From assembly GCA_050952625.1 (NCBI GenBank), contig JBMNLH010000003.1, positions 1 to 64,000 of the forward strand: a DNA stretch of 64,000 nt, given 5' to 3'. Shown here in pieces: positions 1-31,073 of this stretch. Made by a program: the position numbers and the translations under genes. This DNA is from Bacillota bacterium. GTDB lineage: Bacteria; Bacillota; Ch66; Ch109. Every line of letters starts with the position of its first letter. The first letter of the stretch is position 1. The notes under the pieces were generated by a model. It worked only from the letters and a program-made list of their open reading frames with translations. It was not told where the DNA came from and searched no databases.

Positions 1-3000
1 ACATCCAATGTTCCGGTTCCGCCTCCATCGCGCACATCAGGTTCCAAGCAGCTGCGCAAATTTCAATACATCCAATGTTCCGGTTCCGCGTAAAAACGAT
101 TTGCGCGGGCGGTAGGATCCGCTCATTTCAATACATCCAATGTTCCGGTTCCGCTCAATGACCCAAAGATAGCATTGAACCACGACCTGTATTTCAATAC
201 ATCCAATGTTCCGGTTCCGCTGCGGAAAAGTCGGCCACCACAAGCTTATTACCCGGATTTCAATACATCCAATGTTCCGGTTCCGCGTATACAACCAAAA
301 AAGATCCGGCCAGCGAAAAACATTTCAATACATCCAATGTTCCGGTTCCGCGGGCCCTACCGTGCTGCCGCCTGTGTAGGTGAACCGGTCATTTCAATAC
401 ATCCAATGTTCCGGTTCCGCGGCGGAGCGCAGCAAAGCGTAGCAAAGGCGGGGCGAATTTCAATACATCCAATGTTCCGGTTCCGCACTGGTACAGCATG
501 GTATTGAAGAAGCCATGCTGTAATTTCAATACATCCAATGTTCCGGTTCCGCTCACCACGCATATTCAAACCGGTGATTTTCACTTTTATTTCAATACAT
601 CCAATGTTCCGGTTCCGCCTCATGCCGGTTTTCGCCATGTAGGCCGCAGCGATATTTCAATACATCCAATGTTCCGGTTCCGCGTATGATGGACAGACCA
701 AGATCGAGGCTGATGGGGATTTCAATACATCCAATGTTCCGGTTCCGCAGCTTTGCGATCGCCTTTTTCTATCTTCGAGACTTGATTTCAATACATCCAA
801 TGTTCCGGTTCCGCTAACACGAACCAATCTTTGCTGTTCTTAATTTCTCCATTTCAATACATCCAATGTTCCGGTTCCGCTGCATTGCATCACACTGCCA
901 TGCCATGCCTTTGCTAATTTCAATACATCCAATGTTCCGGTTCCGCCCGCTCGCTGCTGGCGTTGACCCTTTCTACTACGTCCATTTCAATACATCCAAT
1001 GTTCCGGTTCCGCGACTGCCTGATTCCGGTTCTGAATCGGATTGTACTATTTCAATACATCCAATGTTCCGGTTCCGCTGGCCGAAACGGCAATCCTCAG
1101 CAAGTTCGACCGACATTTCAATACATCCAATGTTCCGGTTCCGCTTGTCAATGCTGTAACAAGCATATTTTCCAGCGCCATATTTCAATACATCCAATGT
1201 TCCGGTTCCGCATCTGACCCCTAAACAGTCTGCTAAATCCTGAATTGATTTCAATACATCCAATGTTTCCGGTTCCGCAAGAACTTCACGACCTGGCACA
1301 CTCGACACAGACCAATTTCAATACATCCAATGTTCCGGTTCCGCCGACATAAGCTGATCTAAGGAATTTTATAACTGGTTTATTTCAATACATCCAATGT
1401 TCCGGTTCCGCTTGACGAGTGGATGCCGTAATGTTTTGCCCACTGCCATTTCAATACATCCAATGTTCCGGTTCCGCGGCTCAACATCGATAGTCTCTTT
1501 GTTAGCATTTTCCTATTTCAATACATCCAATGTTCCGGTTCCGCCGTACCGACTGGCTAAACTGAGTCATTCTAGTACCCGCTTCACCCATTTCAATACA
1601 TCCAATGTTCCGGTTCCGCCCAGTCTAGGTCCCGAGTACCAACGACCAGCCTCATTTGCAATTTCAATACATCCAATGTTCCGGTTCCGCTACCCCTGCG
1701 AGATCTGCCGACAGTACGGTACCAGATCCGGCATTTCAATACATCCAATGTTCCGGTTCCGCTTAAAAATCCAGGCTGTTCACCAATTCCACGTATTTCA
1801 ATACATCCAATGTTCCGGTTCCGCGTAGGTCCTGCTTTGCAGTCGCCCGGTCAATTATTTCAATACATCCAATGTTCCGGTTCCGCGACTTGTGATAAGT
1901 GAAATACAGACAGACTCCGATTTCAATACATCCAATGTTCCGGTTCCGCCACCTAACTGCAGTATAAACAAATAGTCTGCTTCATTTCAATACATCCAAT
2001 GTTCCGGTTCCGCGATTAGTAAATGCCGTTTACTGTTCCTTTAATTTCAATACATCCAATGTTCCGGTTCCGCCGCACGGAATTCTTACGACCCATGATA
2101 CTAGATTTCAATACATCCAATGTTCCGGTTCCGCACCTATATGTAAATCCATTATGAAGTGTTCCCCTATTTCAATACATCCAATGTTCCGGTTCCGCGG
2201 GACAGCTTGAATGATCTTGACAACACCAGCATATTTCAATACATCCAATGTTCCGGTTCCGCCAACGACGATGGCAGCCCCAATTGCGGCGTCCACTGCC
2301 CAGATTTCAATACATCCAATGTTCCGGTTCCGCTCGGCATGCCTGCGTCTTGCATGCACCTCGGGGACTACAATAACTATTTCAATACATCCAATGTTCC
2401 GGTTCCGCCGGCGGACGATGGCAGCCCCTACGGGCATGGCCAAGAACGAATTTCAATACATCCAATGTTCCGGTTCCGCCGGTCAGAAGGCCTGGCAAGA
2501 ACCTCGGGGACGACAATACAGATTTCAATACATCCAATGTTCCGGTTCCGCCGTGGAATGATCCACTTTTGCAGGGTCAACATTGTATTTCAATACATCC
2601 AATGTTCCGGTTCCGCGGTCAAAGCGGCAAAAGAACCAGACATTCAGAATTTCAATACATCCAATGTTCCGGTTCCGCCGACTTGCCACATTAGCCGGGT
2701 CAGACCATTAGATATTTCAATACATCCAATGTTCCGGTTCCGCCCGCAAGCTCGGCTACCAGATTATCATGCAGGTGTTCAACAGTTGTAATTTCAATAC
2801 ATCCAATGTTCCGGTTCCGCCCGCACCGTCACTTTTCGGGTCAATGTGATTTCAATACATCCAATGTTCCGGTTCCGCGTCTTGCGCAGTTCTGTCAAAT
2901 TTCAATACATCCAATGTTCCGGTTCCGCTGCGAAAAGAATCGGCAGTCTAGCGTTTGAAATATATTTCAATACATCCAATGTTCCGGTTCCGCTGTCGTA

Positions 3001-3853
3001 TCAACTCCTTATATAGATAGTATAGCATAATTTCAATACATCCAATGTTCCGGTTCCGCCCGTGATCATCGGGTATAATAGTCGGCTCAGTCCCAATTTC
3101 AATACATCCAATGTTCCGGTTCCGCCTAACAGCGTTTTTAGTCAGGGCTGTTTTCGTTATATTTCAATACATCCAATGTTCCGGTTCCGCGATAGATTTT
3201 AACATAATCGAAATTGGAGAAACCTTATTTCAATACATCCAATGTTCCGGTTCCGCCCAGCGGGGGGAAGCTGGCGGTACGGGCTACAGAGCTATTTCAA
3301 TACATCCAATGTTCCGGTTCCGCACAACTGCGCCTGGTTCAACAGGAAAGCCATTTTGCATTTCAATACATCCAATGTTCCGGTTCCGCTTACGCCAGAC
3401 ATTGAGTGTATAGAAGTCAATCCATTTCAATACATCCAATGTTCCGGTTCCGCAAAAGAGCTAGTGTGGGAGGAGCGTTTTAAAGCGCTATTTCAATACA
3501 TCCAATGTTCCGGTTCCGCCGTCCGCACTGCGGTAGTAGGCTTTTATATAGGCATATTTCAATACATCCAATGTTCCGGTTCCGCTGGGCGGCTCCTGCA
3601 TGTCTCCGTATTCGAGTTCGTATTTCAATACATCCAATGTTCCGGTTCCGCAAGGAGAAGACTCATGGATAAGTATATCGGAGTTAAATTTCAATACATC
3701 CAATGTTCCGGTTCCGCGGGTTCTTTACGATGTTGCTGACTTTATCTATCACATTTCAATACATCCAATGTTCCGGTTCCGCAGGCATTGGTTGCGGACT
3801 TGGGCCCTGTTATCAAAAGCCATATTTCAATACATCCAATGTTCCGGTTCCGC
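1..3853 (-). CRISPR. Type I-B CRISPR array; repeat GCGGAACCGGAACATTGGATGTATTGAAAT (minus strand); 58 full repeats + 1 partial, 58 spacers; truncated by window start
   Basis: ATTTCAATACATCCAATGTTCCGGTTCCGC recurs every ~65 bp on +. Orientation inferred from the ATTGAAAT 3' end typical of I-B repeats and the leader lying next to cas2. One repeat (1248-1278) has an extra T. Confidence 0.99.
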
Positions 3854-4030: not shown

Positions 4031-4315
4031 TCAAATAATAATAGACTCCGGGTCAACTCCCGTATTCCCAATACTTTCTTCATGAAAAGAAGATTCGCTC
4101 ATAGTTTGAATAAAGGTTACAAAGTCATGGTTCGGGTCAATGCTTTTCTTTAATTTCCCTTTGAGTTCTAGGTAATTTGCTGGCGTGATATGTCCCCTAA
4201 ATACCGATTTTTGAAAATGCTTCAAATACTGTTTGCAGATTTTAAATATTTTAGCGACCCGTTTCTCCCCTACATCGTAAAAAACAATGACATAATTGTA
4301 ATTTGGCTTTTTCAC
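4031..4315 (-). CDS. cas2: CRISPR-associated endonuclease Cas2
   Basis: 94 aa; YVIVFYDV...RVAKIFKICKQYL..FQKSVFRG motif; last gene before array. Confidence 0.97.
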   Translation of the reverse strand: MKKPNYNYVIVFYDVGEKRVAKIFKICKQYLKHFQKSVFRGHITPANYLELKGKLKKSIDPNHDFVTFIQTMSESSFHEESIGNTGVDPESIII

Positions 4316-5319
4316 TTTTTCTCCTCCATGCAGAAAGGAACAAAGTTTTTCCCTTCCAAGATATGCTTAACCAGCTTATATCCGTCTAAACGAATGGTTT
4401 GTTTAAAACTGCACCTTCTTTTTAAGGTTGGATGTTCAAACGTCTGGTTGAGCCGACCTTCAAAAGCCTCAATAAACGTCTTGCGTCCGGTCTCGTTCAG
4501 CAAGGCATAATTCAGCTTTTTGTCAAAATGCTTTTCGACCGTGATTTTACGGTTATTCACACAATCAAAAATAGTTTTATAAACCAACACGGGTTTAAAT
4601 ACTTCCGACAAATCTAAGCTTAGGGAAAAACGTCTCTCCGCCGGCTCATGCAGAAAAGAAATAGTTTGATTCAAATGGGTATGGTAAATTTCTGTAATTG
4701 TTTTTGTGTAAAGTAAAGCATTACCAAAAGATATCAAAGCATTGATAGGATTATCCGGCGGGCGTTTTACCCTTTTGTTCATCGCAAATGACTCAGGCAG
4801 GATTACCCGAAAAGTCTGATAAAACCGGGCCCAAATTTCTCCTTCAATACGCAACAACTGTTTAATATCGCCAACAGCATCGACCAAACGCGGTACATCC
4901 TTGCGTAGCCAGTCCAGATAGTCCTTCAGCTCACTTTTCCCATGCCTGTAGTAATGGTAGAGTACAAAATAAATATTTTTGGAGATTCCCTTAACAATCG
5001 GTCCGGCAATCTTTAACCTGTTTTGCTTATAAGCCAAAGCCTGAGCAACCGTTAACCTCCCGCTCAATAGTTGTTCTTTGGGATAGAATGTCCCTATGTA
5101 GTTTCCATAATAACCAAAAAAATGCACTACAATGCCCGCTTTCGCTAAAAGCTGCAGCAATTTTGTGCTAAGAGTAATTTCATTAAAACAGTACAATTCC
5201 CGCGTATCCTTTATGGGAAGATAGATATTCCCGTCTTCTTTGTGGAAAACAATAGAAAAATCCCTCTGATATAAATCCCCTGTTGAAAAAATATAACGGG
5301 TATCACTGCTCGTTCCGAT
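4312..5319 (-). CDS. cas1: Cas1, type I-B (Hmari-like); reading frame extends upstream of the ORF-track start to a probable ATC start
   Basis: RPPDNPINALISFGN, ISFLHEP and SLSLDLSEVFKP motifs. Open frame upstream gives a Cas1-like N-terminus (TRYIFSTGDLYQRDFSI), behind SD AGGGAGGG and an in-frame TAG. Confidence 0.97.
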   Translation of the reverse strand: MGTSSDTRYIFSTGDLYQRDFSIVFHKEDGNIYLPIKDTRELYCFNEITLSTKLLQLLAKAGIVVHFFGYYGNYIGTFYPKEQLLSGRLTVAQALAYKQNRLKIAGPIVKGISKNIYFVLYHYYRHGKSELKDYLDWLRKDVPRLVDAVGDIKQLLRIEGEIWARFYQTFRVILPESFAMNKRVKRPPDNPINALISFGNALLYTKTITEIYHTHLNQTISFLHEPAERRFSLSLDLSEVFKPVLVYKTIFDCVNNRKITVEKHFDKKLNYALLNETGRKTFIEAFEGRLNQTFEHPTLKRRCSFKQTIRLDGYKLVKHILEGKNFVPFCMEEKK

Positions 5320-5334
5320 CCTCTATCCCTCCCT

Positions 5335-5820
5335 TTAGATAAAGCAGTAATCATAATAGGCACATTTTCTGCAAGTTGGCTTTTTAATTGGCGGCGGTGG
5401 CAGCTCTCGCTTTAAGAAAAGCTCTATCTCGTGATATTTGGCCTTGCGTTCCTCGATCTCTTCTTCCGTTAAGGTTAAAGTATGGACGCTTTTACTTTGC
5501 TTGTTCTTTTCTAGACATTCCAACCGCCCTTTGCGTAAAATTCCCTTGTCATGCAAAACGACCAGATAAAATTCCAATTGCGCTTTAGCTGCTGCCAGGT
5601 CAGCATCAGATTTCTTGATTTCCGTAACATATTCCGCTGTTAGTTTATCAAGCTTGATGCCTTCTAGGGCTATCTCTTCTTTCCCCTGCCTCTTCAACTC
5701 ATGTAATACCTTGCCAATGCGGACATCTTCTGAGTTGTCCTCTAAATTTATATTGTGGTAAAACAGCCAGCACTGCCGCTGGCAATGTGTATAGTAATTG
5801 ACAACTGTTCCGGTCAGCAT
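5335..5820 (-). CDS. cas4: CRISPR-associated exonuclease Cas4
   Basis: 161 aa; N-terminal C-x-RQCW, RecB-like D..EIKKS, C-terminal CxxCAYxxxC Fe-S ligands. Confidence 0.96.
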   Translation of the reverse strand: MLTGTVVNYYTHCQRQCWLFYHNINLEDNSEDVRIGKVLHELKRQGKEEIALEGIKLDKLTAEYVTEIKKSDADLAAAKAQLEFYLVVLHDKGILRKGRLECLEKNKQSKSVHTLTLTEEEIEERKAKYHEIELFLKRELPPPPIKKPTCRKCAYYDYCFI

Positions 5821-8204
5821 TACAAAAATATCCCCCCATAGTATTTCTCCAATGCCTCCCTGTTCAAAACCCCATCTTCAACAAAACGTTCTCCGCCATC
5901 AATAAAATAATAACCATTGTATTCCTCGACACCATCGGGAATTTGGTCCCGAAATACCGTAAATGTGAAATAGGACATTTTTTGTGCCATTCTGGAATAC
6001 TCAATCATGCGCTGGGCGTAGCCCATTTCTTTATCGCTGTCCAGGGCTTTAAATTCCTCCCACACTTGGTACCCGTCTAAGTCCTCCCAGACATATGGAA
6101 TAAAAAGTTGCCAGTTACGTTCAATTAAGCGCATCTGCTCTTCTATTTTCTTACAATTGAATTGGGCACAATTTTCATCTAGATTAGCCAAATTTTTCTG
6201 GTTAGCTTTACTTGTTTGGGCTATTAAATCTGTAAAAATCCGTGCATAAATTTCGTCAAAGCGTTTGCCCTGAAGATATTGCCGTATGGTCGGATCATGG
6301 ATGGAATAATTCAGCCTGGCATCCCCTCTGTAGATAAACGATGCATCATCTAAATCAAAAAAATAGGCAACAGCCCCTTCGGTATTCAGGCAGGACCTAT
6401 TGATTCGTCCCATAAATTGCTCTTCGGCATCAGGCAGAGAAATATCTTTAAAGCCAATTTCCATATCAATGTTGATCCCGGCTTCAATGACCTGAGTAGC
6501 AATAAGCATAAGTTTCTCGCCACTATTGATCCGCTGGATCACCTGGTCTCTTCTGGCCGCATTATCGTCGCCGGTAAGCAAAACAGCATTACAATCTTCT
6601 TTGCAAAGCTCGTAAAATTTCCTGGCTGTTTTTTTCTTAATGAATTCCACCAGTACCCGTTTGCCCTGAAAATGCAATACTTCTTCTTTCAGTTCCTCCA
6701 GAGTAATCTTACCTTTTTCCAGCAAAGAAAAATCTGGCCGCACCCTACTCTGAAAAAGCGGATGCTGGTAATACCTTTGCGCATCTTCCACCAGTGTGGC
6801 AAATTGTGCGTCTACTGTCCTGAGCAGTTGGTCCAACTGCGGCAACGTAGCCGACATTATAATGATTTTAATGTGCAGCTGCTGCGCATAACTTTGTAAA
6901 AAACTAATTATTTCGCGCCAGATGCGATTTTTATAACTTTGGATTTCATCAAGAATGACCACACTGTTGCATAATTTAAGCAAGGGAAAGCACTGCTCAC
7001 GCCCACATCCAAACAAAACATTAAAAAAATTAACATGTGAAGTTAGGATAATTGAATAATTGTTAAAAATATGATCCAGCCAAGCCGCCTCATATTTATC
7101 TTTCCGGTCGTCTTGCCCCATCATAACCGGGGTAATGGAGTTGATGACCGTTAGTTGATCACCGAAATAAGGAAGCATAGTTTTCCTGGTTTGCTCCACC
7201 AGAGTGTTAAAAGGGAAAATATAAAAAACATTATTAATCTTGGAATCCATTTCCATGACCCGCAGGGTCAGATTAATAGCCATATTCGTTTTACCAGCAC
7301 CCGTAGGGGCTTCCAGGTAATAGATGTGAGCCTCCGGTTTAGCCAGCAGATTTCGTTCAGTTTCTAAAAATAATTGATTGCGCAGGGCATTGATCGGATC
7401 TCCGCTAAATACTGCCGGATCCTGCTGGTATTGACGAATGCTTTGACAGATGTCACTGTTATCGTAACTTTGCTTTAAAGCTTCCCCGCCGTCTTGAATG
7501 ACCGCAGGTTGCATGGCGTGGCCTGTCATAAATTCCTGGGTAGCACAGTAATCACAACCCGTAATCAAGGCATAAAGTAACCGACACAGGATATAAAAGC
7601 TAACCGGTTGTTCAACTACTCTGGACTCCTGCATATAATAACGGATATTTTCAAAGATACTGCTGTCCAGCTCGCTTTGGTAATATCTTTCATTCCAAGT
7701 TTCAAGGTTTGAAAAATCATGTCCGTTGTCTAATTTTCTGTGATGTTTGCAGATACAGTAGGCGAAAGCTGCCAGGCATTTTTGAACGATCTTAGAGGGA
7801 TTATCAAGCAAAATCTTGTACATCTGATCGATATAGATATAAGCAGAGGCTATGGCATGATGAGAATTTCTTGCCTGCCTGCAGTTAGTTCTAAACAACT
7901 CGTTTTCCAGCACCTCGTATTGATAACGGGGGTTAATTTTACCTGCATCATGTAAATAAATGGCGTAGAGGAACATTAAATATACTGTTTGCTTTTCATC
8001 TCCCCGTAAACCACAGGCGGTAATCAATCCTTGAACAACTTCTTCAATACCCTTATATTCGCAATACACCTCATAATAGTGTAAAGTAAGTCGGGAATGG
8101 GCTAGCAGAGTTTCCGTTTCCCTGGTGCCGCCGAATATCCTAGTATGGGCTAGATAACGGGCATCCTGCAGCAGTTCGGGGGTAATCAAATTAATTCTTT
8201 TCAT
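5820..8204 (-). CDS. cas3: Cas3 HD nuclease-helicase
   Basis: HDAGK HD motif, APTGAGKT Walker A, DEIQ, MSAT, ATQVIEAG, QFMGRINR. Confidence 0.98.
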   Translation of the reverse strand: MKRINLITPELLQDARYLAHTRIFGGTRETETLLAHSRLTLHYYEVYCEYKGIEEVVQGLITACGLRGDEKQTVYLMFLYAIYLHDAGKINPRYQYEVLENELFRTNCRQARNSHHAIASAYIYIDQMYKILLDNPSKIVQKCLAAFAYCICKHHRKLDNGHDFSNLETWNERYYQSELDSSIFENIRYYMQESRVVEQPVSFYILCRLLYALITGCDYCATQEFMTGHAMQPAVIQDGGEALKQSYDNSDICQSIRQYQQDPAVFSGDPINALRNQLFLETERNLLAKPEAHIYYLEAPTGAGKTNMAINLTLRVMEMDSKINNVFYIFPFNTLVEQTRKTMLPYFGDQLTVINSITPVMMGQDDRKDKYEAAWLDHIFNNYSIILTSHVNFFNVLFGCGREQCFPLLKLCNSVVILDEIQSYKNRIWREIISFLQSYAQQLHIKIIIMSATLPQLDQLLRTVDAQFATLVEDAQRYYQHPLFQSRVRPDFSLLEKGKITLEELKEEVLHFQGKRVLVEFIKKKTARKFYELCKEDCNAVLLTGDDNAARRDQVIQRINSGEKLMLIATQVIEAGINIDMEIGFKDISLPDAEEQFMGRINRSCLNTEGAVAYFFDLDDASFIYRGDARLNYSIHDPTIRQYLQGKRFDEIYARIFTDLIAQTSKANQKNLANLDENCAQFNCKKIEEQMRLIERNWQLFIPYVWEDLDGYQVWEEFKALDSDKEMGYAQRMIEYSRMAQKMSYFTFTVFRDQIPDGVEEYNGYYFIDGGERFVEDGVLNREALEKYYGGIFL

Positions 8205-8277
8205 GGATACCCCTCCGAATTAAACAGGCAGCTAGCCGAAACCGATTCGACTGCTGCACTGTAATTCACTTTCTAAT

Positions 8278-9027
8278 TCAATAAAAGCAATACTGCCGCT
8301 CCCCATCCGTATAAAGAAAGGGCGGTAGGGCAGCTTCAGGAATGGTTCCATTGGTAAAAACATAACGTCCGAATTCATAAAAATTATGGTTAGGCACCAA
8401 ACCAATTGGAGCCGTTTCCACAAATAAATACTGGGATGGTTCACCTTCATCCAGAGCTTTTAGATCTCCTTCGTACAAAAACAGCGAATCAATACGGGAC
8501 TGCCTTGAGGGAGAAAGCTCCACCATCTGCACATCCTCGATTTGAGCTGGAAAATCATTGCGGCCTAAATAGGGAAGGTAGACGCACTTACCCTGCTGTA
8601 GACTTTGGCAAAGTTTGTCCCAGACAGCATCATCCAGATTATGCTGGGCTAATAAAATTGTCCAGCTGGGATTTTCCAGCCATTGTTCCCGCACCTGTAA
8701 ATTACCGCCTTTTTCTTTTGACGCATAACCCACGCTGTTGTTGAAGTATTGTATTTTCTTAGTGAAATAACCGTTTTTGCCTTTGGGGATCACCGATACC
8801 TGCAGAGAGGAAAGCACCTCGTAAAATTCCGGAAAGACTCGCTCTTCCTCTCCGTGGAGTTTGGCATTGCGGTAGCCGCTCAGGCCTAAAACCGCTCCCA
8901 AAAGTCCAAGCAGGGCAACTTTATGGATATTGTTATAAGTGAAATAAACATGGGTATTCACGTCGGGCTGCCGGAAGCAAGCTGCTGGCCCGGAAAGAGT
9001 GAAGCACAGACTTTTCATCATCTTCAC
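8278..9027 (-). CDS. cas5: Cas5, type I-B
   Basis: FTLSGPAACFRQPD...YFTY..IHKVALLGLLGAVLG; YLPYLGRN. Confidence 0.95.
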   Translation of the reverse strand: MKMMKSLCFTLSGPAACFRQPDVNTHVYFTYNNIHKVALLGLLGAVLGLSGYRNAKLHGEEERVFPEFYEVLSSLQVSVIPKGKNGYFTKKIQYFNNSVGYASKEKGGNLQVREQWLENPSWTILLAQHNLDDAVWDKLCQSLQQGKCVYLPYLGRNDFPAQIEDVQMVELSPSRQSRIDSLFLYEGDLKALDEGEPSQYLFVETAPIGLVPNHNFYEFGRYVFTNGTIPEAALPPFLYTDGERQYCFY

Positions 9028-9030
9028 CCC

Positions 9031-9963
9031 TTAATAAATAGACTGAACGTCACATGGCAGCGACCCATAATCTACCTCGACAGTTTCTAAGTTATAATAC
9101 AGTTCCACTGATTGGATATCTTTCAAGCGTGGTTCCAAAACTTTGGCTAGTTTGGTCAGATCGTATAAAATGTGGTCTCCTTGCTTACGTACCGTTACAT
9201 AACGATCCAAATTAGCCAAAAATAACTGGCTACCCTCTTTTAATTCGATAAATAAGGCCAATTCATTTTCGCAGCCACTTTTAGAATTGGTATTAAACGC
9301 TGTGGTGGCCACTCTGGCGGCCCATTTGAACTTTTCATACGCTTCATTGGTATAGCCTTCAAATCCTTCAGCCAGTCCGATAAAATCGTTATAGTTGGCT
9401 GGATTGACTGAAAAAGAATACACATAATGCGCTTCATCAGTAACAATCTTAGTTCCCATAGAAGAGGCCAGTTTTCCCTCACTCTTCTCATTAGAATTAC
9501 GGAAGGGCGAAAGAATCTCCTGGGTCAGCACATGGGTATCCGCAAAAAGGTTACGTCCCTGGTTGATTTGCACCGCTCCTGTGATACTGATGTTTTGTTT
9601 TTTTTCGGCGAATGTAGCACCAAAATTCATAACATCAATAGCGGAAAACAGCTTGCCTAAAACCTCTTTAGAAGAAGTTTTTTCATCCAAATGCCCAAAG
9701 AGGAATGTGTATCTCTCATTTAAATCCCTGGGTTGAATTTTTTCGCCCTCTTTATCAACCTGCATACTTTGCATACTTTTAATGTAAAGTACCGGCTCAC
9801 CCTGCATCTGCCACATACGCTTCATCGGATATTTAAGAGCTTTATCGCTGGCAAAGATATGATTATCGGTGGTCGTTTTGGGATATCCAGACAGGTCGGC
9901 ATTGAAATTGGCCATATAAGCACCGACGGCAAGAATTCCATAGACTCTATTTTCCTTCTTCAT
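9031..9963 (-). CDS. cas7: Cas7 (Csh2-like) Cascade backbone
   Basis: ANFNAD...SDKALKYPMKR, DVMNFGATF, SITGAVQI motifs; position in operon. Confidence 0.93.
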   Translation of the reverse strand: MKKENRVYGILAVGAYMANFNADLSGYPKTTTDNHIFASDKALKYPMKRMWQMQGEPVLYIKSMQSMQVDKEGEKIQPRDLNERYTFLFGHLDEKTSSKEVLGKLFSAIDVMNFGATFAEKKQNISITGAVQINQGRNLFADTHVLTQEILSPFRNSNEKSEGKLASSMGTKIVTDEAHYVYSFSVNPANYNDFIGLAEGFEGYTNEAYEKFKWAARVATTAFNTNSKSGCENELALFIELKEGSQLFLANLDRYVTVRKQGDHILYDLTKLAKVLEPRLKDIQSVELYYNLETVEVDYGSLPCDVQSIY

Positions 9964-9979
9964 TCCTGCAACCTCCCTT

Positions 9980-11761
9980 TTAATCTAAAGTTTTCTCCTT
10001 ATTCCCCTTAGAGTCTTTAGCCTTATCCGTATAATAAATAATGCTACTTGCCGCAAAGCCGTAAAACAAGGCGTCTAGGTTAATGGGTTCCTCTTGTTCG
10101 GGTTCATAAGAAGATACAATACTCAACATATGATTAAATCTAAAATTATCAATATCAATGTCGTAAGCATATTTTTGAAAGTGTTTACGATGTTCTTTTT
10201 TGATGTCTTCCACACTTTTGGCAGACGCAATCCCACGCCATAACACATCATAATGCAGTTTCTGGGCCTGACTTCGGCTGAAATAATAATAAAGAAGCTG
10301 CCCAGCTGCCAAATAAAACTCCAATGCGCTCTGGCAGGCAATATGTTCTTTTCTACTGTCCGTATTAATAACTTTATCTTTTAAAGCAATGTAAGCTTTT
10401 TCGATAGCATATCCCACATCGTTTTCCCCCTCACTAAAATAGTTTAGGAGTGCTAACCGGACATTTAGTGCATAAGCGAGGGTAGTAATATATTCCAAAT
10501 TTTGCAACCGTGCCAAAAGCACTCCCATTGTAGCCTTGTCGACACAATTCTGTATAGGAAACTCGTTTCCTTTCCTCAGCCAGGAATGCAAAGCCTCTCG
10601 CGTCAACATAATTTGAACAGCCAGCAGCTGAGGTAAGTTATCAGTCATTTGAATTTTTTCCACGTAATAATTACGGACCAGCTGTCCCCCATACAAATAA
10701 ATATTGATATGAGCCTCTACAGCACTCAAAGTGTTCAACGTTCCACCCGGATATTTTGGAGCATCCAGGTAATTTTCGAAAAGCACCGGCCTGTCCATCC
10801 GGTCCTTAAAACTAGGCAGAAAATCGTAATCATCCACCGTTAGATCCATTCCTCTGTCCAAATGGACATAGGCAGCAGGTTTACGCACTTTCATCTCACC
10901 TGCCGCGACAAAAAGCCCGGGATCATGTTGGCCGATTGGAAAATAACCGGTATAAAGGGGTTTCCCTTCCCTTTCCTGCCCGTTAAGCCACAAAAACAAT
11001 TTGCGTAATAAAACACCTTCCCCGGCGGTGATGCGATAAGGAACCTTAAATGCTGTTGTTTTGTGTTCCAAGTAAGGCTTTTTAGCGTTCATACCCATAT
11101 TAACGTTAGATAACCCAAGTACCTGATCGTTAATTTCGATGTTATAGCTGTTGCTGTTAAATATTTTAGGCAGTAAGTAGCGACCACTTTCATAAATATA
11201 GTCATTTAGGTTAGCATCCAAAAATATTTTAATGTAGCAGTTATCTTTGATGTTCTGCTGGATAATTCTTTCCGCTACGGCCTCCAAAGCAGAAAGAAAT
11301 CGTGCTTTGCATTTCTCAACTGTTTCGGATTGCAGTGGTTCATATCCAGCGTTTTTTAGAATTTCAGTACTTTCTTTATCTCTAGCAGCGAGCAAGGTAT
11401 TGAAATAACGGTCAATGTGTTCCTTTAAATCAGGTCGCACCCCTCCCGCCCCAAAAACTTCGTGCTTGCAAAACAGTGTGAATATATTATTACTATGGAT
11501 TTTTTTCTTGGGATCTACCGGTTTATTCATTTCAATTAAACTGCTGGCAAAATCGGCCTGTTTAAACCACTCGAACAGGGGATTGTTTTCGGGCCAAACC
11601 ATTTTTTTCGTTACATAAAATTCGTCCATCGTACCATCTTTGTTTAAACGAAGATATAATCCGGGTTTAAGGCGGTAATTCTGCACCACCATTGTGTCTG
11701 GATCAAAATCCGGGTATTGGTTTTGATGATCGGTAAACTCATTGAGTAGTTCCTTTAGCAA
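9980..11761 (-). CDS. cas8b: Cas8b large subunit (probable TTG start 11761)
   Basis: ~590 aa between cas6 and cas7; MNKPVDPKKKIHSNN and NAKKPYLEHKT motifs; C-terminal Cas11-like helical segment (EFYLAAGQL). Confidence 0.88.
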   Translation of the reverse strand: MLKELLNEFTDHQNQYPDFDPDTMVVQNYRLKPGLYLRLNKDGTMDEFYVTKKMVWPENNPLFEWFKQADFASSLIEMNKPVDPKKKIHSNNIFTLFCKHEVFGAGGVRPDLKEHIDRYFNTLLAARDKESTEILKNAGYEPLQSETVEKCKARFLSALEAVAERIIQQNIKDNCYIKIFLDANLNDYIYESGRYLLPKIFNSNSYNIEINDQVLGLSNVNMGMNAKKPYLEHKTTAFKVPYRITAGEGVLLRKLFLWLNGQEREGKPLYTGYFPIGQHDPGLFVAAGEMKVRKPAAYVHLDRGMDLTVDDYDFLPSFKDRMDRPVLFENYLDAPKYPGGTLNTLSAVEAHINIYLYGGQLVRNYYVEKIQMTDNLPQLLAVQIMLTREALHSWLRKGNEFPIQNCVDKATMGVLLARLQNLEYITTLAYALNVRLALLNYFSEGENDVGYAIEKAYIALKDKVINTDSRKEHIACQSALEFYLAAGQLLYYYFSRSQAQKLHYDVLWRGIASAKSVEDIKKEHRKHFQKYAYDIDIDNFRFNHMLSIVSSYEPEQEEPINLDALFYGFAASSIIYYTDKAKDSKGNKEKTLD

Positions 11762-11765
11762 TGTA

Positions 11766-12482
11766 TCACCTCCCGGTAATGCAATAGCCAAATCCTAATC
11801 CATTTTTTTCCAACAAACCCGCCGCCAATGCAGTGATAGCCAACTGCTGGGCCCAAGGGTGGGGCTTTACTCTCAACCGCACTTTATGTCCGAGCAAAAT
11901 AGCACTTTTCCCTTTGTAGTTGGTAACTATGGGTTTTTTATTAAGCAGTTCAATATGTTCAAAGAAAAATTCTTCCGGTTCAGTAAAGGATGCGTCCAAA
12001 ATTCTGTATTTTTTGAGAGCGTTCACATGTAGACGCTCGGAAAGAAGTCCAAGGCCATTCTCCGGTAGCCAATAGCGGTTATTATAAGTACATACGATAG
12101 GTGTCAATGTAATCAGTTCTGTTATATGCTTTGGGGTATAATTTTTTAATTCACTTGAAATAACTCTGACTAGGCCTTGTGCTTTAGGTAAAAACTGCTT
12201 TAATCTAAGGGCAAGCTTTAAGTTTAATGTACGTAAGTTGAAGCAGTACATCCTTCCTTTTCGATAAACCCGATCAGCCTCTAAAGGATAGGGTGCACAG
12301 AAAACATAGTGTTTAAATACATTCCGATGATGAAACTCTTTTAACTCTGCATCGAAAAGCATGCTATTATTAATAATCTCCGCCAAAACAGACTGCGCCT
12401 CATTCGCAGGCACGTCTTGTTTAAATTGTACAGTGGACAAAATTTCATAGTAACAATGTAACAGTGTTTTCACCTCCTTCAA
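11766..12482 (-). CDS. cas6: Cas6 crRNA-processing endoribonuclease (probable start CTG 12464 after SD AAGGAGGTG)
   Basis: C-terminal Gly-rich loop GLLEKNGLGFGY; TLTPIV; first gene of operon. Confidence 0.95.
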   Translation of the reverse strand: MKEVKTLLHCYYEILSTVQFKQDVPANEAQSVLAEIINNSMLFDAELKEFHHRNVFKHYVFCAPYPLEADRVYRKGRMYCFNLRTLNLKLALRLKQFLPKAQGLVRVISSELKNYTPKHITELITLTPIVCTYNNRYWLPENGLGLLSERLHVNALKKYRILDASFTEPEEFFFEHIELLNKKPIVTNYKGKSAILLGHKVRLRVKPHPWAQQLAITALAAGLLEKNGLGFGYCITGR

Positions 12483-12517
12483 TGCTATATTATTTTTTTA
12501 GTTACTCAATAATTAAA

Positions 12518-12546
12518 ACAATACTTTAAAATGAAATATCCGTCAA
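12518..12546 (-). promoter_or_regulatory. sigma-A promoter of cas operon, TTGACG-N17-TATTGT
   Basis: Near-consensus hexamers with 17-bp spacing ~50 bp upstream of cas6. Confidence 0.6.
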
Positions 12547-12579
12547 TAACCTTTTTCATTTTTTATTGATTTTTTCCAG

Positions 12580-12782
12580 TTGCCATTTTAATAAGCTTGG
12601 GTATACTATGTATTGAAACAAGCCATGTATTGAAATATGCTTTATTATTTTTTAAGTGTTGATTCTGCAACCTTCACATCTAATGTTTTGTGCGTTGCGC
12701 ATGTGAAAACCGAAACATAGTGTTTGTTTCAATTACAAAGGCAGCACCTTTCTTCGTATGATTAAAAGTGCTGTTTTTTTAT
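12580..12782 (+). ncRNA. Putative crRNA-like regulatory RNA (degenerate mini-array, CreA/CreR-like) with its own promoter and terminator
   Basis: TTGCCA-N16-TATACT; pseudo-repeat 12607-12636 (19/30 identical to the repeat, last 12 nt exact); pseudo-repeat 12704-12733 (18/30); CAGCAC...GTGCTG-T7 terminator. Confidence 0.65.
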
Positions 12783-13293
12783 TTAGCTATGCCGATTACA
12801 AAGTTATGTACATCGTTATGCGGTATCTTTTAATTGTTGCAATCATGTTATACCGCCTCACTTCAGAATATATAAACCCGACGAATTACCTTGGTTTTAC
12901 AAATTTGGACTCCATATGGATACTTTCGCTAAAATTTTTGTTTTTCCTTCTCAATCCATGTTTTCCAGATCACTCTTTTAATTATGTTTAGTTAAATAGA
13001 TCAATGCATTTTCAGACTTTAATTTGATTTAGAAGCCAATAAAAATTTTTTGATTTAACTTAGTTCGCAATTAAGCTACACCCATTGTTTGACAAGACGG
13101 GCAGTTAATTTTAGAATTTGTCTGCAAAATCACATACCAGCCCTTGCCGAAGATAGTAAGGCCTCTTTTGCTTTACGCAATTTATGAATTGAAAGAAATG
13201 TGCAATAATTATTACAATAACCCTACTGCTTCATTTCATTAGCCACCCTCCCCAAATTTCTGCTATAATCAATTAATAAATTAAACACGGTAT

Positions 13294-13397
13294 ACCGCTA
13301 GGGGTGCCTGAAGGCTGAGAGGCGATAGCCAACCCTTAGAACCTGTGGTTGAGGCAATGATCAACCATTCTGGATAATACCAGCGTAGGGAAGTGGT
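13294..13397 (+). ncRNA. TPP riboswitch (variant with inserted hairpin)
   Basis: AGGGGTGC..GCTGAGA..ACCCT..ACCTG..CTGGATAATACCAGCGTAGGGAAG; upstream of thiT/thiN. Confidence 0.93.
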
Positions 13398-13419
13398 GCG
13401 AAGAAAGAATAAGCTGATC

Positions 13420-13453
13420 GCCATATGCCGCTTGGTATATGGTTTTTGTTTTT
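13420..13453 (+). terminator. Intrinsic terminator, TPP expression platform
   Basis: CCATATGCC-gctt-GGTATATGG followed by T-tract. Confidence 0.8.
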
Positions 13454-13467
13454 AACTACTAATTAAA

Positions 13468-13503
13468 TTAAAGAATCCAGTTAGCTTAAAGAATCCAGTT
13501 AGC
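13468..13503. repeat. 18-bp perfect tandem duplication TTAAAGAATCCAGTTAGC x2
   Basis: Direct reading. Confidence 0.9.
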
Positions 13504-13634
13504 GATTTAAAGTTAAGAGTGGCACGCCAAGCATTACGGCGTTGGTTAAACGATTGTTTTCATCAGTTATGTCTGGCGGGCGTGGGTATTTTGTCAATCG
13601 AACCAAAATTTTCTCATAACCTGGAGGGAGTAAA

Positions 13635-14168
13635 ATGCGTTTTCTAAACCTGCGTGTAATGGTTGAAATAGCGGTTATGCTTGGTCTGGCGGCGGTTCTG
13701 GGGATGATCAAGATTTATCAGGCACCCTGGGGTGGCTCGGTTTCGCTGGAGATGCTGCCTTTATTTATTGTGGCTTACCGCTGGGGGCTTAGGCCTGGAC
13801 TGATCGCCGGCCTGGTTTACGGTTTGTTGAATCTTTCCCTGGATGGGATGCGTTTCATTGTTCACCCGATTCAATTGCTCTTGGATTACCCGGTTGCCTT
13901 TGCGTTAGTCGGCTTGGCCGGCTTGTTTCCCGGCCATTACTGGCTCGGAACGATCATCGGCAGCCTGGCTCGGTTAGCTTCACATGTAGTCTCCGGGGCC
14001 ATCTTTTTTGGTGCCTTCGCCCCGGAAGGGCAAAACGTGTGGGTGTATTCGCTGGTCTATAATAGCAGCTATATCCTGCCGGAAATGGTCATCTCCGGTT
14101 TGTTGATCTGGCTAATCGCCAAAAGAACCCGCCATCTGGGATTGTTAAAGCACCAAAGTAACAAGTAA
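13635..14168 (+). CDS. thiT: ECF transporter thiamine S-component ThiT
   Basis: GGSVSLEMLP, HPIQLLLDYP, SHVVSGAIFFG, YSLVYNSSY motifs; under TPP riboswitch. Confidence 0.93.
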   Translation: MRFLNLRVMVEIAVMLGLAAVLGMIKIYQAPWGGSVSLEMLPLFIVAYRWGLRPGLIAGLVYGLLNLSLDGMRFIVHPIQLLLDYPVAFALVGLAGLFPGHYWLGTIIGSLARLASHVVSGAIFFGAFAPEGQNVWVYSLVYNSSYILPEMVISGLLIWLIAKRTRHLGLLKHQSNK

Positions 14169-14369
14169 GTCCGTCTAAAAAGAACAGGGGGGACAGATTA
14201 TCTGTCCCTTTTGAATTTTTACCCATAATTTGCTGTCCCGCCAACCAATAATGATTATTTGATTGATCATGAAAGGACACTGCAGAAAAATGGCTTTTAG
14301 TTTATGTTTTGTTTTTAACTTGATATAATAATCATCAAAGAAAGAAGAACCCTGGAGGAAGAATATTTA

Positions 14370-15015
14370 ATGAAGGCGTCGCTGTGTGTTAGCTGCCAAT
14401 GGTAATTGGGAAAACGTTCAGTGGCATGTCCAGCAATTACATGAACATGCGCACGATTTTTTAGTCGGGATTGACGGTGGGGCTGAGCATCTCTGCCGAT
14501 TGGGCCGAGTGCCGGATCTGGTGGTCGGTGATTTGGATTCTTTGGCTCCAGCGATGGTCCGAGAATTAAAAACCGCCGGCTGCGAATTCATCGTTTACCC
14601 GGCGGAAAAGGACCTGACCGATACCCAAATTGCCCTGGAGTTGGTTAAACAGCGCGGTTTTCAGGATATTCTGCTCCTGGGGGCACTGGGTGACCGGCTT
14701 GACCATTTGCTGTCTAATCTGTTTTCGCTGGTCCCTCTGGTACAAGCTGGGCTGCGTATCAAGCTGGCGAGTCCCGAACATTGTCTCTGGCTGGTCCCCA
14801 ATGAAGTGACGATAAACAGCAGGCCCGGTCAGGTGGTATCCTTACTGGCTTTAACTTCGGTAGCCGGAGTGACCACCACTGGTTTAAAGTATCCGCTGCA
14901 CGACGCCAATCTCGAACCTTTTCACCCTTATGCGGTTTCCAATGAAATGGTGGGAAACCAGGCCAAGGTAAGCTGGGGCCAAGGGGTGTTGCTGGTTTAT
15001 CTGCCAGAAGGTTAA
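14370..15015 (+). CDS. thiN: Thiamine pyrophosphokinase ThiN (ATG 14370 is out of frame by 1 nt; long frame opens at GTG 14386)
   Basis: DGGA, GDLDS, EKDLTD, GALGDRLDH, GLKYPL, VSNE motifs. Confidence 0.93.
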
Positions 15016-18600: not shown

Positions 18601-18729
18601 GAAAAACCTTCCTTTCTCCTGGTGCGTCAAGGCTTAATGTATTGAAAAATTTATCTAAAAGGTTCTATGGCCCCCTTTCTGATACAATCTTTAATCCTTT
18701 CTTTGTTTCAATTCAGCATAAAGCTCACT

Positions 18730-18924: not shown

Positions 18925-19012
18925 TTTCAAGGCAACCCGGCTATCGTAGTATTGAAAATACCTTAGACCCGTGGCTTTGCGTAGTACCCTTTCGAGTACG
19001 TTGCCAAATATA
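18925..19012 (-). ncRNA. c-di-GMP-I (GEMM) riboswitch upstream of MCP
   Basis: Minus strand GGCAAC-GTACTC-GAAA-GGGTAC-TACGCAAAGCCACGGGTCTAAGG...GATAGCCGGGTTGCC: GAAA tetraloop, TAA receptor, GCAAA junction. Confidence 0.88.
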
Positions 19013-19165
19013 TAATTATAATTGTCTGATGTTTCAAAAACGGCCTAAATATTCAAACCAGTATTAAATATTCATTCGACCTTTTTAACCATATTCCTCC
19101 TTAATGAATAAAATTTTTATTATTTAATTATTAGAGTCTGGCATGAGGCTACTTAAGGCTTGAGG

Positions 19166-28331: not shown

Positions 28332-28407
28332 TGGTGAGCCATGGTGGACTCGAACCACCGACACCCTGATTAAAAGTCAGGTGCTCTACCGACTGAGCTA
28401 ATGGCCC
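28332..28407 (-). tRNA. tRNA-Lys(TTT)
   Basis: Cloverleaf; anticodon arm CCTGA-CTTTTAA-TCAGG; CCA end. Confidence 0.97.
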
Positions 28408-28451
28408 ACTAAAAATATCTAATTTGAAATATCTAATTTGCTTTGAAAAAA

Positions 28452-28527
28452 TGGCTGGGGCGGCTGGACTCGAACCAACGCATGCGGGAGTCAAAGTCCC
28501 GTGCCTTACCGACTTGGCTACGCCCCA
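28452..28527 (-). tRNA. tRNA-Gln(TTG)
   Basis: Anticodon arm CGGGA-CTTTGAC-TCCCG; CCA end. Confidence 0.97.
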
Positions 28528-28638
28528 GCGGTAGTTTTGTTGCGCTATTATTTTTGCGCCCAGTGAAAAAGTATAGAGGAATTTTCCGTCTGTGTCAAGG
28601 GCCTGATCTAAAAAAAATCGGCTCTTTTTTGTTCAAAA

Positions 28639-28715
28639 TGGCGCGCCCGGCAGGGCTCGAACCTGCGACCTGCGGATTCGAAGTCCGTCACTCTATCCAA
28701 CTGAGCTACGGGCGC
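28639..28715 (-). tRNA. tRNA-Arg(TCG)
   Basis: Anticodon loop CTTCGAA; CCA end. Confidence 0.95.
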
Positions 28716-28721
28716 ATTAAT

Positions 28722-30991: not shown

Positions 30992-31073
30992 CGCTCAAGA
31001 GACAATGCAAACGCATCTAATAAGCTAAGGGATAGCCAAGTGGTTATCCCTGCTTTTATTCGCGATAAATAAC

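What the first reader, a model, noticed from the sequence alone, without database searches (positions are those of the whole stretch)
12479..12782. Hidden mini-CRISPR divergent from cas6 whose guide matches the cas operon 5' UTR: candidate Cascade autoregulation system
Seen on +, opposite to the main array: promoter TTGCCA-N16-TATACT (12580-12607); pseudo-repeat 1 at 12607-12636 keeping the last 12 nt ATGTATTGAAAT, including the whole 8-nt 5' handle; pseudo-repeat 2 at 12704-12733 keeping mainly the AACCG.AACAT core (18/30); then a terminator. The pseudo-spacer begins ATGCTTTTATTATTTTTAAGT. About 155 bp away, 12482 reads ATGCTATATTATTTTTTTAGT, preceded by TCA. Positions 1-5 and 7 match and 6 mismatches; with a 1-nt bulge 15 of the first 17 nt match. 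The site lies between the cas promoter (12518-12546) and the cas6 SD. Established: position 6 is unpaired in Cascade R-loops, TCA-type PAMs occur in clostridial I-B systems, and partially complementary crRNA-like RNAs (CreA/CreR) guide Cascade to repress promoters without cleavage. Inference: this RNA makes Cascade repress its own operon. Caveat: the match is AT-rich and needs a bulge.
Basis: partly seen in the sequence, partly recalled or inferred. Interest (0 to 1): 0.82.

Follow-up and report, generated by a model that had tools for sequence, protein, structure and literature searches.

The report
Self-targeting mini-CRISPR that throttles cas genes
A small degenerate CRISPR unit next to a type I-B cas operon encodes a guide RNA whose first 21 bases match the operon's own leader, a known kind of self-repression switch (CreR), here with an unusual RNA fold.

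Summary
The pseudo-spacer (12637-) matches 12482-12502 at 19 of 21 positions with no bulge. The only mismatches are at positions 6 and 18, and TCA precedes the site. It is the best seed-anchored hit in the 2.9 Mb genome, and 0 of 200,000 simulations reached it.

Nine distinct homologous elements lie divergently upstream of related cas6 genes. Each carries a different seed that matches its own TCA-flanked site just upstream of the cas6 ribosome-binding site. Mismatches cluster at every sixth position, the Cascade signature. Two array spacers with intact seeds have TCA-flanked protospacers in other genomes.

This is a CreR-type regulatory mini-array. That kind was described in 2023, including for bacterial I-B systems with the mini-array upstream of cas6, so it is a new member of a known kind.

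Two corrections:
- The functional second pseudo-repeat is 12665-12694, which makes the pseudo-spacer 28 nt.
It pairs with the 5' leader in a conserved long-range helix, possibly rebuilding a split Cas6 site.

Expression, processing and repression remain untested. Only one weak metatranscriptome contig bears on expression.

The parts
1..3853 (-). CRISPR array. 58 repeats lie in the window. crRNA sense is the minus strand, and the repeat reads GCGGAACCGGAACATTGGATGTATTGAAAT. The array continues on contig C2 with 122 more repeats.
4031..12464 (-). Type I-B cas operon: cas6, cas8b-position gene, cas7, cas5b, cas3, cas4, cas1, cas2.
   Evidence: Pfam. NCBIfam Cas5b I-B TIGR02592 scores 151.8 bits against a cut-off of 97. 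The 603-aa large subunit has no family hit.
12462..12478 (-). cas6 Shine-Dalgarno AGGAGGTGA (12478-12470) and the probable start codon CTG (12464-12462). Homologues have ATG at this position.
   Evidence: L013/L019 ATG aligns with the window's CTG
12479..12481 (+). PAM 5'-TCA-3' on the non-target strand.
   Evidence: TCA is present in 9 of 9 distinct homologous loci. Two protospacers carry TCA.
12482..12509 (+). Protospacer in the cas6 5' leader. Positions 1-21 (12482-12502) pair with the pseudo-spacer, except positions 6 and 18.
12518..12546 (-). cas operon promoter: -35 TTGACG, N17, -10 TATTGT. The protospacer begins 9 nt downstream of the -10 box.
   Evidence: A TTGAC[AG] box lies 40-65 nt upstream of protospacer position 1 in 9 of 9 loci.
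12580..12607 (+). creR promoter: TTGCCA, N16, TATACT.
   Evidence: 10 of 12; conserved in L013 and L020
12612..12628 (+). 5' strand of the long-range helix P1. It comprises the leader plus the ATGT that precedes the handle.
12625..12636 (+). Pseudo-repeat 1 remnant ATGTATTGAAAT. The predicted 8-nt 5' handle ATTGAAAT is 12629-12636.
   Evidence: The 8-nt I-B tag AUUGAAAC/U is documented in PMC3479195.
12637..12664 (+). Pseudo-spacer, 28 nt. The modal array spacer is 36 nt.
12665..12694 (+). Pseudo-repeat 2. AACC..CACAT / ATGT is invariant across the family. The hairpin is ACAT(12676-79)-CTA-ATGT(12683-86), and its loop varies between loci.
   Evidence: 4 pairs, 100% paired, never vary
12704..12733 (+). 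From its ACAT onward (12715-12734, one base beyond the element) it forms the 3' strand of helix P1.
12738..12780 (+). Intrinsic terminator: a GC-containing hairpin followed by T7.
   Evidence: fold. The simple scan did not flag it.

Best explanation
The region 12580-12780 on the + strand is a creR-type gene. It is a degenerate mini-CRISPR transcribed divergently from the type I-B cas operon.

Proposed mechanism:
1. Cas6 processes the precursor into a crRNA-like RNA of about 58 nt (about 12629-12686). This consists of an 8-nt ATTGAAAT handle, a 28-nt pseudo-spacer and a 3' hairpin handle.
2. Cascade loaded with this RNA recognises the TCA PAM at 12479-12481.
3. It forms a partial R-loop over the first 21 nt of the protospacer. 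The protospacer fills the stretch between the cas promoter -10 box and the cas6 ribosome-binding site.
4. The bound complex blocks RNA polymerase at or just after initiation. The operon therefore represses itself in proportion to free Cascade.
5. Complementarity stops at 21 nt, so Cas3 is not licensed and the chromosome is not cut.

What is shown: the anatomy, the statistical non-randomness, conservation, seed/target covariation, sixth-position mismatch periodicity, and the TCA PAM.

What is inferred: transcription, Cas6 cleavage, Cascade loading, repression and the absence of cleavage.
For: 1. **Match.** 19 of 21 ungapped positions starting exactly at pseudo-spacer position 1, with TCA in front. 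It is the best hit in the whole genome. 0 of 200,000 simulations reached it.
2. **Family.** The covariance model finds the element, at E no higher than 1e-9, divergently upstream of cas6 in the window and in 10 of 15 related loci searched. These give 9 distinct sequences. There was no hit in L005, L011, L012, L023 or L026.
3. **Covariation.** The 9 sequences form four groups (window/L013/L020/L021; L004; L009/L010/L016; L014/L015). Each group has its own seed, and the members of the first group also differ from one another. Every seed matches its own site over 13-21 nt once a single internal mismatch is allowed. By the stricter sixth-position-free run, L013 scores 8 because of its position-9 mismatch. 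Guides tested against targets of other groups give runs of 0-3. Changes at positions 4, 14, 15 and 17 occur on both the guide and the target side.
4. **PAM.** TCA is present in 9 of 9 loci, while the distance from PAM to SD and the base at position -4 vary.
5. **Periodicity.** Within the first 12 positions, 9 of 18 cells at positions 6 and 12 are mismatched, against 1 of 90 at other positions. The lineages are related, so the Fisher p of 1e-7 overstates the support.
6. **Independent PAM evidence.** Four spacer-like matches were found outside arrays in two searches of 401 genomes each. The two with intact seeds (36/37 and 32/35) are flanked by TCA. The other two (31/35 and 32/37, both with seed mismatches) are flanked by TCC and CCT. 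TCA is also a recurrent clostridial I-B PAM (PMC4860712, passages).
7. **Geometry.** A TTGAC[AG] -35 box lies 40-65 nt upstream of protospacer position 1 in 9 of 9 loci.
8. **Literature.**
   - CreR autorepression was shown experimentally for I-B, I-E and V-A systems (10.1101/2023.03.10.532045, abstract and section 8).
   - I-B mini-arrays upstream of cas6 that target between the mini-array and cas6 are described (10.1101/2023.03.03.530964, section 22 and passages).
   - In a bacterial I-B system, 26 nt or less of complementarity gives repression without cleavage (PMC10551041).
9. **Weak expression hint.** One 175-nt contig from one metatranscriptome run covers about 12596-12770.
Against: - No direct evidence of a processed RNA, of Cas6 cleavage or of repression. 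The metatranscriptome evidence is a single low-depth contig (depth 3.3). It also includes the predicted -10 box, so it may be DNA carry-over or read-through.
- One near-identical Cas6 relative (L005/L017) lacks the element altogether, so it is dispensable for the system.
- The pseudo-spacer is also complementary to the cas6 mRNA leader, so an RNA-RNA mechanism is not formally excluded.
- L013 has one mismatch at a non-sixth position (position 9).
- The PAM rests on only 2 clean protospacers. No protospacer was found in the phage collection, the plasmid collection or the organism's own genome.
- cas6 appears to start with CTG, so translation of the first gene may be unusual.
Confidence: 0.82

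Rival explanations
1. A Cascade-independent antisense small RNA. The pseudo-spacer region pairs with the cas6 mRNA leader directly upstream of the SD, and blocks translation or triggers decay.
For: The pseudo-spacer has the same sense as the + strand. It is therefore complementary to the cas mRNA leader, and the site abuts the SD.
Against: - RNA-RNA pairing gives no reason for mismatches to fall at positions 6, 12 and 18 (9 of 18 cells there against 1 of 90 elsewhere).
- It gives no reason for an invariant TCA outside the duplex in 9 of 9 loci.
- It gives no reason for the duplex to start exactly after an intact 8-nt crRNA handle.
- It does not explain the conservation of a repeat-like 3' hairpin.
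Confidence: 0.06
2. The antitoxin half of a CreTA-type addiction module. The RNA would repress a hidden small toxin gene as well as, or instead of, the cas operon.
For: CreA and CreR are structurally the same kind of RNA. Liu et al. keep the name CreR only until a toxin is found. An unannotated 77-aa ORF with no family hit lies at 12758-12991.
Against: - The only strong target in the genome is the cas6 leader. The next best seed run is 15, with a TTT flank.
- There is no room for a gene between the two divergent promoters (12546 to 12580).
- No toxin candidate was seen in the homologous loci, but this was not searched systematically.
Confidence: 0.05
3. A decaying, non-functional remnant of an array, with the match to the leader being a leftover of a local duplication.
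For: In L015 the similarity between guide and target continues beyond the seed if a 1-nt indel is allowed. That could reflect common descent of the two segments.
Against: - The element is conserved across loci whose Cas6 proteins are only 58-77% identical.
- Changes are compensatory and restricted to paired positions, while sixth positions drift freely.
- Promoter, terminator and helix P1 are conserved.
Confidence: 0.03

Closest known systems
CreR (Cas-regulating RNA), Liu et al. 2023, bioRxiv 10.1101/2023.03.10.532045 (abstract, section 8 and supplementary figure legends read)
   Same: - A degenerate mini-CRISPR beside the effector cas genes.
- Pseudo-repeat 1 keeps the 5' handle, and the downstream pseudo-repeat keeps the 3'-handle part.
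- A PAM-flanked, partially complementary site at the cas promoter.
- No adjacent toxin.
   Different: - Here there are three repeat-like elements.
- Pseudo-repeat 1 is reduced to 12 nt.
- The leader pairs with the third element.
- The target lies in the initially transcribed leader next to the SD of cas6, not upstream of cas8/casA.
- Function is untested here.
Bacterial type I-B mini-arrays upstream of cas6 (Clostridium perfringens, Fusobacterium), Shmakov et al. 2023, bioRxiv 10.1101/2023.03.03.530964 (section 22 and passages read; figures and supplements not seen)
   Same: - Same subtype and same position upstream of cas6.
- The target lies between the mini-array and cas6, with a typical I-B PAM.
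- Sixth-position mismatches are noted there, for I-F1 systems.
   Different: - A different repeat family and different hosts (relatives named are Desulforamulus, Desulfotomaculum and Syntrophomonas).
- No phage copy was found.
- The long-range leader helix is not mentioned in the text I read.
CreTA (Cascade-repressed toxin-antitoxin) of haloarchaeal I-B loci, as summarised in the two preprints above
   Same: A crRNA-like RNA with a short seed match guides Cascade to repress a promoter without cleavage.
   Different: No toxin gene is identified here. The repressed promoter is that of the cas operon itself.
Truncated-guide repression by the Parageobacillus thermoglucosidasius type I-B system, PMC10551041 (passages read)
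   Same: A bacterial I-B Cascade represses transcription with 11-26 nt of complementarity while Cas3 is present.
   Different: That system uses engineered guides with a TTA-type optimal PAM (TCA is weak there). It is not a natural autoregulatory circuit.

Membership tests
CreR-type regulatory mini-CRISPR | Two or more degenerate repeat-like sequences flanking a spacer-like sequence, located in or beside the cas locus and outside the array. | tested here: met
   Pseudo-repeats at 12607-12636 (19/30), 12665-12694 (16/30 by my own count on the sequence) and 12704-12733 (18/30). They lie about 140 bp upstream of cas6.
CreR-type regulatory mini-CRISPR | The upstream pseudo-repeat keeps the 8-nt 5' handle. 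The downstream pseudo-repeat keeps the part that gives the 3' handle. | tested here: met
   ATTGAAAT is intact in 9 of 9 sequences. AACC..CACAT-loop-ATGT is invariant in 9 of 9.
CreR-type regulatory mini-CRISPR | Partial, PAM-proximal complementarity of the pseudo-spacer to a site at the promoter of the effector cas genes. | tested here: met
   Complementarity covers 21 nt in the window and 13-21 nt in relatives. The site lies between the -10 box and the cas6 SD.
CreR-type regulatory mini-CRISPR | The target is flanked by a PAM that the cognate Cascade uses. | tested here: met
   TCA flanks the target in 9 of 9 loci. The 2 spacer matches with intact seeds, out of 4 spacer-like matches, are flanked by TCA. 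Functional recognition was not assayed.
CreR-type regulatory mini-CRISPR | The RNA is expressed and processed by Cas6, and repression depends on Cascade. | not testable with these tools
   Only one 175-nt metatranscriptome contig lies over the unit. There are no read ends and no genetics.
CreR-type regulatory mini-CRISPR | No cognate toxin gene; this distinguishes CreR from CreA. | tested here: inconclusive
   There is no second strong target in the genome and no space between the promoters. Small toxic RNAs or peptides cannot be excluded by sequence alone.
CreTA addiction module | An adjacent creT toxin gene whose promoter carries the CreA target. | tested here: not met
   The target sits in the cas6 leader, and no divergent small gene carries it.
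Type I-B CRISPR-Cas | Gene order cas6-cas8b-cas7-cas5-cas3-cas4-cas1-cas2, with Cas5b/Cas7b signatures. | tested here: met
   Pfam. TIGR02592 Cas5b is above its cut-off. The large subunit is unmatched to any family.

The most novel reading that the evidence does not exclude
The family uses a split, circularly permuted repeat. Pseudo-repeat 1 keeps only the 3' half of a repeat (ATGT + handle). The missing 5' half (AACCGAAACAT) sits about 90 nt downstream in pseudo-repeat 3. A conserved long-range helix between the transcript's 5' leader and the rest of pseudo-repeat 3 brings the two halves together. The ACAT:ATGT stem and both flanks of a canonical Cas6 site are thereby rebuilt, with the hairpin loop replaced by an open-ended helix.

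On this reading, maturation of the regulatory guide's 5' handle depends on the fold of the whole precursor. A complete repeat next to a promoter is also avoided; such a repeat could recombine with the roughly 180-repeat array or accept new spacers.

The helix itself is well supported:
- It is in the minimum-free-energy fold of 9 of 9 sequences.
- Cognate duplexes score -15.4 to -19.2 kcal/mol, against -4.4 to -10.4 across sequence classes.
- 0-15 of 1000 shuffled leaders do as well.
- 14 of 22 pairs change on both sides in the model-fitted alignment, and 0 of 500 shuffles reach that.

Its role in Cas6 processing is inference. RNase III processing or simple stabilisation are alternatives.
Probability: 0.45. 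Interest if true: 0.6.

Novelty: new member of a known kind. Interest (0 to 1): 0.45.

Why it matters
This locus adds a well-documented bacterial type I-B example of Cas autorepression by a degenerate guide. The comparative signal is unusually clean: lineage-specific seeds that covary with their targets, an invariant PAM, and free drift at every sixth position. Together these amount to an evolutionary footprint of Cascade binding obtained without any experiment.

The family also gives a natural series of guide/target pairs and a covariance model for annotating such elements in anaerobic Bacillota.

If the split-repeat reading is right, Cas6 substrates can be assembled from distant RNA segments. 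That would matter for finding hidden crRNA-like genes, because searches for two intact local repeats would miss them. It would also matter for designing processing-controlled guides.

Tried and rejected
- **Protospacers for the 57 window spacers.** None in the phage collection (only three 32-nt hits at E 0.3), none in plasmids, none in the organism's own genome.
- **RNAalifold on the plain MAFFT alignment.** It returned no structure.
- **Helix P1 on the unfitted six-sequence MAFFT alignment.** Covariation is weak: 3 pairs change on both sides, and 62 of 500 shuffles do as well. The covariation support therefore rests on L004 and the L009 group, which only the model-fitted alignment or the alignment-free duplex tests place correctly.
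- **Rfam.** No family over 12300-13000 (one hit of 19 bits against a gathering score of 95).
- **creR against phage genomes.** No match. A motif scan of viral contigs gave 0 hits (after a machine-busy failure).
- **DNA search of 61 relatives with the intergenic region.** Only two chance-level 33-43 nt hits.
- **More distant Cas6 loci.** L011 (40% identity) and L012 (35%) show no element. L026 has a variant handle (ATGTATTTAAAT) and a repeat-like hairpin, but I found no target.
- **Metatranscriptome runs.** Parts of the stretch without cover, and the stop of cas6 contigs at 12450 and 12474, are not evidence of anything.
- **Two reverse-complementary spacers on C2.** They overlap so that neither reveals the other's PAM.
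- **Supplementary files of the two 2023 preprints** were not available. They may already list this repeat family or similar structures.
Full report
**Setting**

The window opens inside a large CRISPR array. There are 58 repeats between 60 and 3853. The + strand reads ATTTCAATACATCCAATGTTCCGGTTCCGC, so crRNA sense is the minus strand and the repeat ends in ATTGAAAT. The same repeat occurs 122 more times at the end of contig C2, so the array has about 180 repeats.

The operon cas2-cas1-cas4-cas3-cas5-cas7-(large subunit)-cas6 follows on the minus strand (4031-12464). Pfam names seven of the eight genes. NCBIfam places Cas5 in the type I-B family TIGR02592 above its cut-off. The 603-aa large subunit matches no family.

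**The observation**

- The divergent promoter TTGCCA-N16-TATACT lies at 12580-12607, and the cas promoter TTGACG-N17-TATTGT at 12546-12518. Both were also returned by the consensus scan.
- The stretch 12607-12636 ends in the exact last 12 nt of the repeat.
- 12704-12733 matches the repeat at 18 of 30 positions.
- A hairpin plus T7 terminator ends at 12780.
- TCA lies at 12479-12481, touching the Shine-Dalgarno sequence.

The only mismatches are at positions 6 and 18.

Over both strands of the 2.9 Mb genome this is the best seed-anchored hit. Its run is 21 with sixth positions free; the next best is 15, with a TTT flank. In 200,000 Markov simulations of the 75% A+T intergenic DNA, a run of 21 or more never occurred. 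A run of 15 or more with a TCA flank never occurred either.

**Relatives**

Cas6 searches covered one genome per species, 401 genomes of the phylum, two classes of 162 and 125 genomes and metagenome contigs. They gave 13 distinct related loci with enough upstream DNA.

Nine of the 13 carry a homologous element divergent from cas6: L004, L009, L010, L013 (=L019), L014, L015, L016, L020 and L021. Among the loci whose Cas6 is at least 58% identical, this is nine of ten. The exception, L005/L017, has another gene upstream.

A covariance model built from six of them finds the window and ten loci at E no higher than 1e-9. It finds nothing in L005, L011, L012, L023 or L026. Together with the window there are nine distinct element sequences.

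**Covariation of guide and target**

In all nine sequences the element ends its first pseudo-repeat in ATTGAAAT. In all nine, the bases that follow match a site 153-199 bp away that is preceded by TCA and lies just upstream of the cas6 SD.

The seeds differ by lineage (lower case marks a sixth position):

| Locus | Seed | Matched length |
|---|---|---|
| window | ATGCTtTATTAtTTTTTaAGT | 21 |
| L013 | same, but G at position 15 in both guide and target | 21 |
| L020 | ATGTTtTATTAcTATTAA | 18 (20 with one further mismatch) |
| L021 | ATGTTtTTTGTTCT | 14 |
| L004 | TTGTTTATATATG | 13 |
| L009 / L010 / L016 | ATGATTATTAGaCAGT | 16 |
| L014 | ATAATtTTAGTaAGT | 15 |
| L015 | ATAATTTTAGTAA | 13 |

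The nine sequences fall into four groups: window/L013/L020/L021; L004; L009/L010/L016; and L014/L015. Guides tested against targets of other groups give runs of 0-3. Within the first 12 positions, 9 of 18 cells at positions 6 and 12 are mismatched, against 1 of 90 elsewhere; the exception is L013 position 9. The target base at position 12 even differs between L009 (T) and L010 (G) while the guide stays the same.

This is the pattern expected if every sixth base is flipped out and unread, as in Cascade R-loops. The periodicity is cited in the Shmakov preprint; the flipped-out-base mechanism is my own background knowledge. It is not the pattern expected for an RNA-RNA duplex. The lineages are related, so the Fisher p of 1e-7 overstates independence.

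**PAM**

TCA is invariant in nine of nine loci. The base before it and the distance from PAM to SD both vary.

I also searched 401 genomes twice with the two parts of the array. This found four spacer-like matches outside arrays:

| Match | Seed | Flank |
|---|---|---|
| 36/37 | intact | TCA |
| 32/35 | intact | TCA |
| 31/35 | mismatched | TCC |
| 32/37 | mismatched; differences spaced every three bases, as at codon third positions | CCT |

TCA is a recurrent PAM of clostridial I-B systems (PMC4860712, passages).

**Geometry and mechanism**

A TTGAC[AG] -35 box lies 40-65 nt upstream of protospacer position 1 in nine of nine loci. In the window the 28-nt protospacer (12482-12509) begins 9 nt after the -10 box and ends at the PAM, which abuts the SD. 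The whole leader is therefore essentially the binding site. The guide pairs with the non-template strand of the operon.

Complementarity of 13-21 nt is below the 26/27-nt boundary between repression and cleavage measured for another bacterial I-B system (PMC10551041).

The most likely mechanism is CreR-type autorepression. Cascade loaded with this RNA occupies the start of the transcription unit without recruiting Cas3. Canonical crRNAs from the very large array compete for the same proteins (10.1101/2023.03.10.532045, abstract and section 8). The competition step is inferred from that paper and was not tested here.

**Corrections to the anatomy, and a new structural feature**

The alignment of the nine elements shows that the conserved downstream repeat is at 12665-12694. 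AACC-TCACAT and ATGT are invariant, and they form the same 4-bp stem as the canonical repeat (ACAT-TGG-ATGT). The loop differs in most lineages.

This makes the pseudo-spacer 28 nt in the window and 22-32 nt in the family. The modal array spacer is 36 nt.

From its ACAT onward (12715-12734) it pairs with the 5' leader and the ATGT that precedes the handle (12612-12628). Evidence for this helix P1:
- It is in the minimum-free-energy fold of all nine sequences.
- Cognate leader/element duplexes are -15.4 to -19.2 kcal/mol, against -4.4 to -10.4 between the three sequence classes.
- 0-15 of 1000 shuffled leaders do as well.
- In the model-fitted alignment, 14 of 22 pairs change on both sides and 85.6% of cells are paired. 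0 of 500 shuffles reach this, and slid registers pair at 29-46%.
- G-U pairs are tolerated, which points to RNA pairing and not to a DNA palindrome.

Caveats:
- That alignment was fitted to the structure.
- On the unfitted MAFFT alignment of the six closest sequences, covariation is not significant: 3 pairs change on both sides, and 62 of 500 shuffles do as well.
- RNAalifold on plain MAFFT found nothing.

The innermost pairs of P1 place the repeat-like 5' flank of the third element (AACCGAAACAT) opposite ATGT|ATTGAAAT of the first. I therefore propose that the two halves rebuild one Cas6 site, a split and permuted repeat. I put this at about 45%. RNase III processing or stabilisation of the precursor are alternatives.

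I found no mention of such a helix in the text of the two 2023 preprints or of the 2024/2026 phage crlRNA preprint (find). A full-text search for "split repeat" together with mini-array terms returned none. Figures and supplements were not available.

**Expression**

Three metatranscriptome runs from bioreactor sludge hold small parts of the stretch. Laid on 10000-14500, one run gives a 175-nt contig over about 12596-12770. It has one base change plus a divergent 27-nt end. Two other runs give contigs over the 5' part of cas6, up to 12450 and 12474. Depths are 3-5, contigs cannot show ends or strand, and DNA carry-over is possible. This is only a weak hint that the unit is transcribed.

**Comparison with what is known, and verdict**

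The element meets the sequence-level criteria of CreR and matches the published description of bacterial I-B mini-arrays upstream of cas6. It does not meet the CreTA criterion of an adjacent toxin.

It is a new member of a known kind. What is added here is the comparative proof for this repeat family, the corrected anatomy, and the long-range helix.

Interest is 0.45. Confidence in the main explanation is 0.82.

Noticed in passing
window 12462-12482 (minus strand): cas6 has no ATG, GTG or TTG at a workable distance from its SD. The codon aligned with the ATG of the closest homologues (L013/L019, L004) is CTG at 12464-12462, 5 nt after AGGAGGTGA. The in-frame GTG and TTG further upstream sit inside or before the SD.
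   Followed up: partly
window 1-3853 and G000:C2:154990-162948: The array runs off the window start and continues at the end of contig C2, giving about 180 repeats in all. One repeat at 1248-1278 carries a 1-nt insertion. Spacer lengths range from 20 to 47 nt, with a mode of 36.
   Followed up: partly
G000:C2:158710-158741 and 160219-160250: Two spacers of the same array are reverse complements of each other over 32 nt, offset by 3 nt. They were taken from both strands of one protospacer region, as seen after primed adaptation. The overlap does not reveal either PAM.
   Followed up: yes
L004 880-2000: In Desulforamulus aeronauticus a second array lies directly upstream of the creR-like element, in cas6 orientation. 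Its repeat is GTGAAACCAAAACATATGATGTATTGAAAT. The window's third pseudo-repeat resembles this repeat variant more than it resembles its own array repeat.
   Followed up: no
L005 1-545 (same place as L017): A Cas6 almost identical to that of L004 has no creR-like element. A different protein-coding gene ends about 90 bp upstream of cas6, so the element has been lost or replaced in a close relative.
   Followed up: partly
L026, about 1300-1420 in cas6 orientation: A more distant Cas6 locus has a divergent ATGTATTTAAAT handle variant and an AACCGTAACAC-ATG-GTGT hairpin, but I found no matching PAM-flanked target. This may be a diverged family member with another PAM or another target.
   Followed up: partly
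window 18928-19015 (minus strand): A c-di-GMP-I riboswitch (76 bits, gathering score 35) lies upstream of the 596-aa ORF at 16840-18630. A cluster of six tRNA genes lies at 28335-31150 on the minus strand.
   Followed up: no
window 12758-12991 (+): A 77-aa ORF begins inside the creR terminator. It has no Pfam or NCBIfam match and is probably not a gene.
   Followed up: partly
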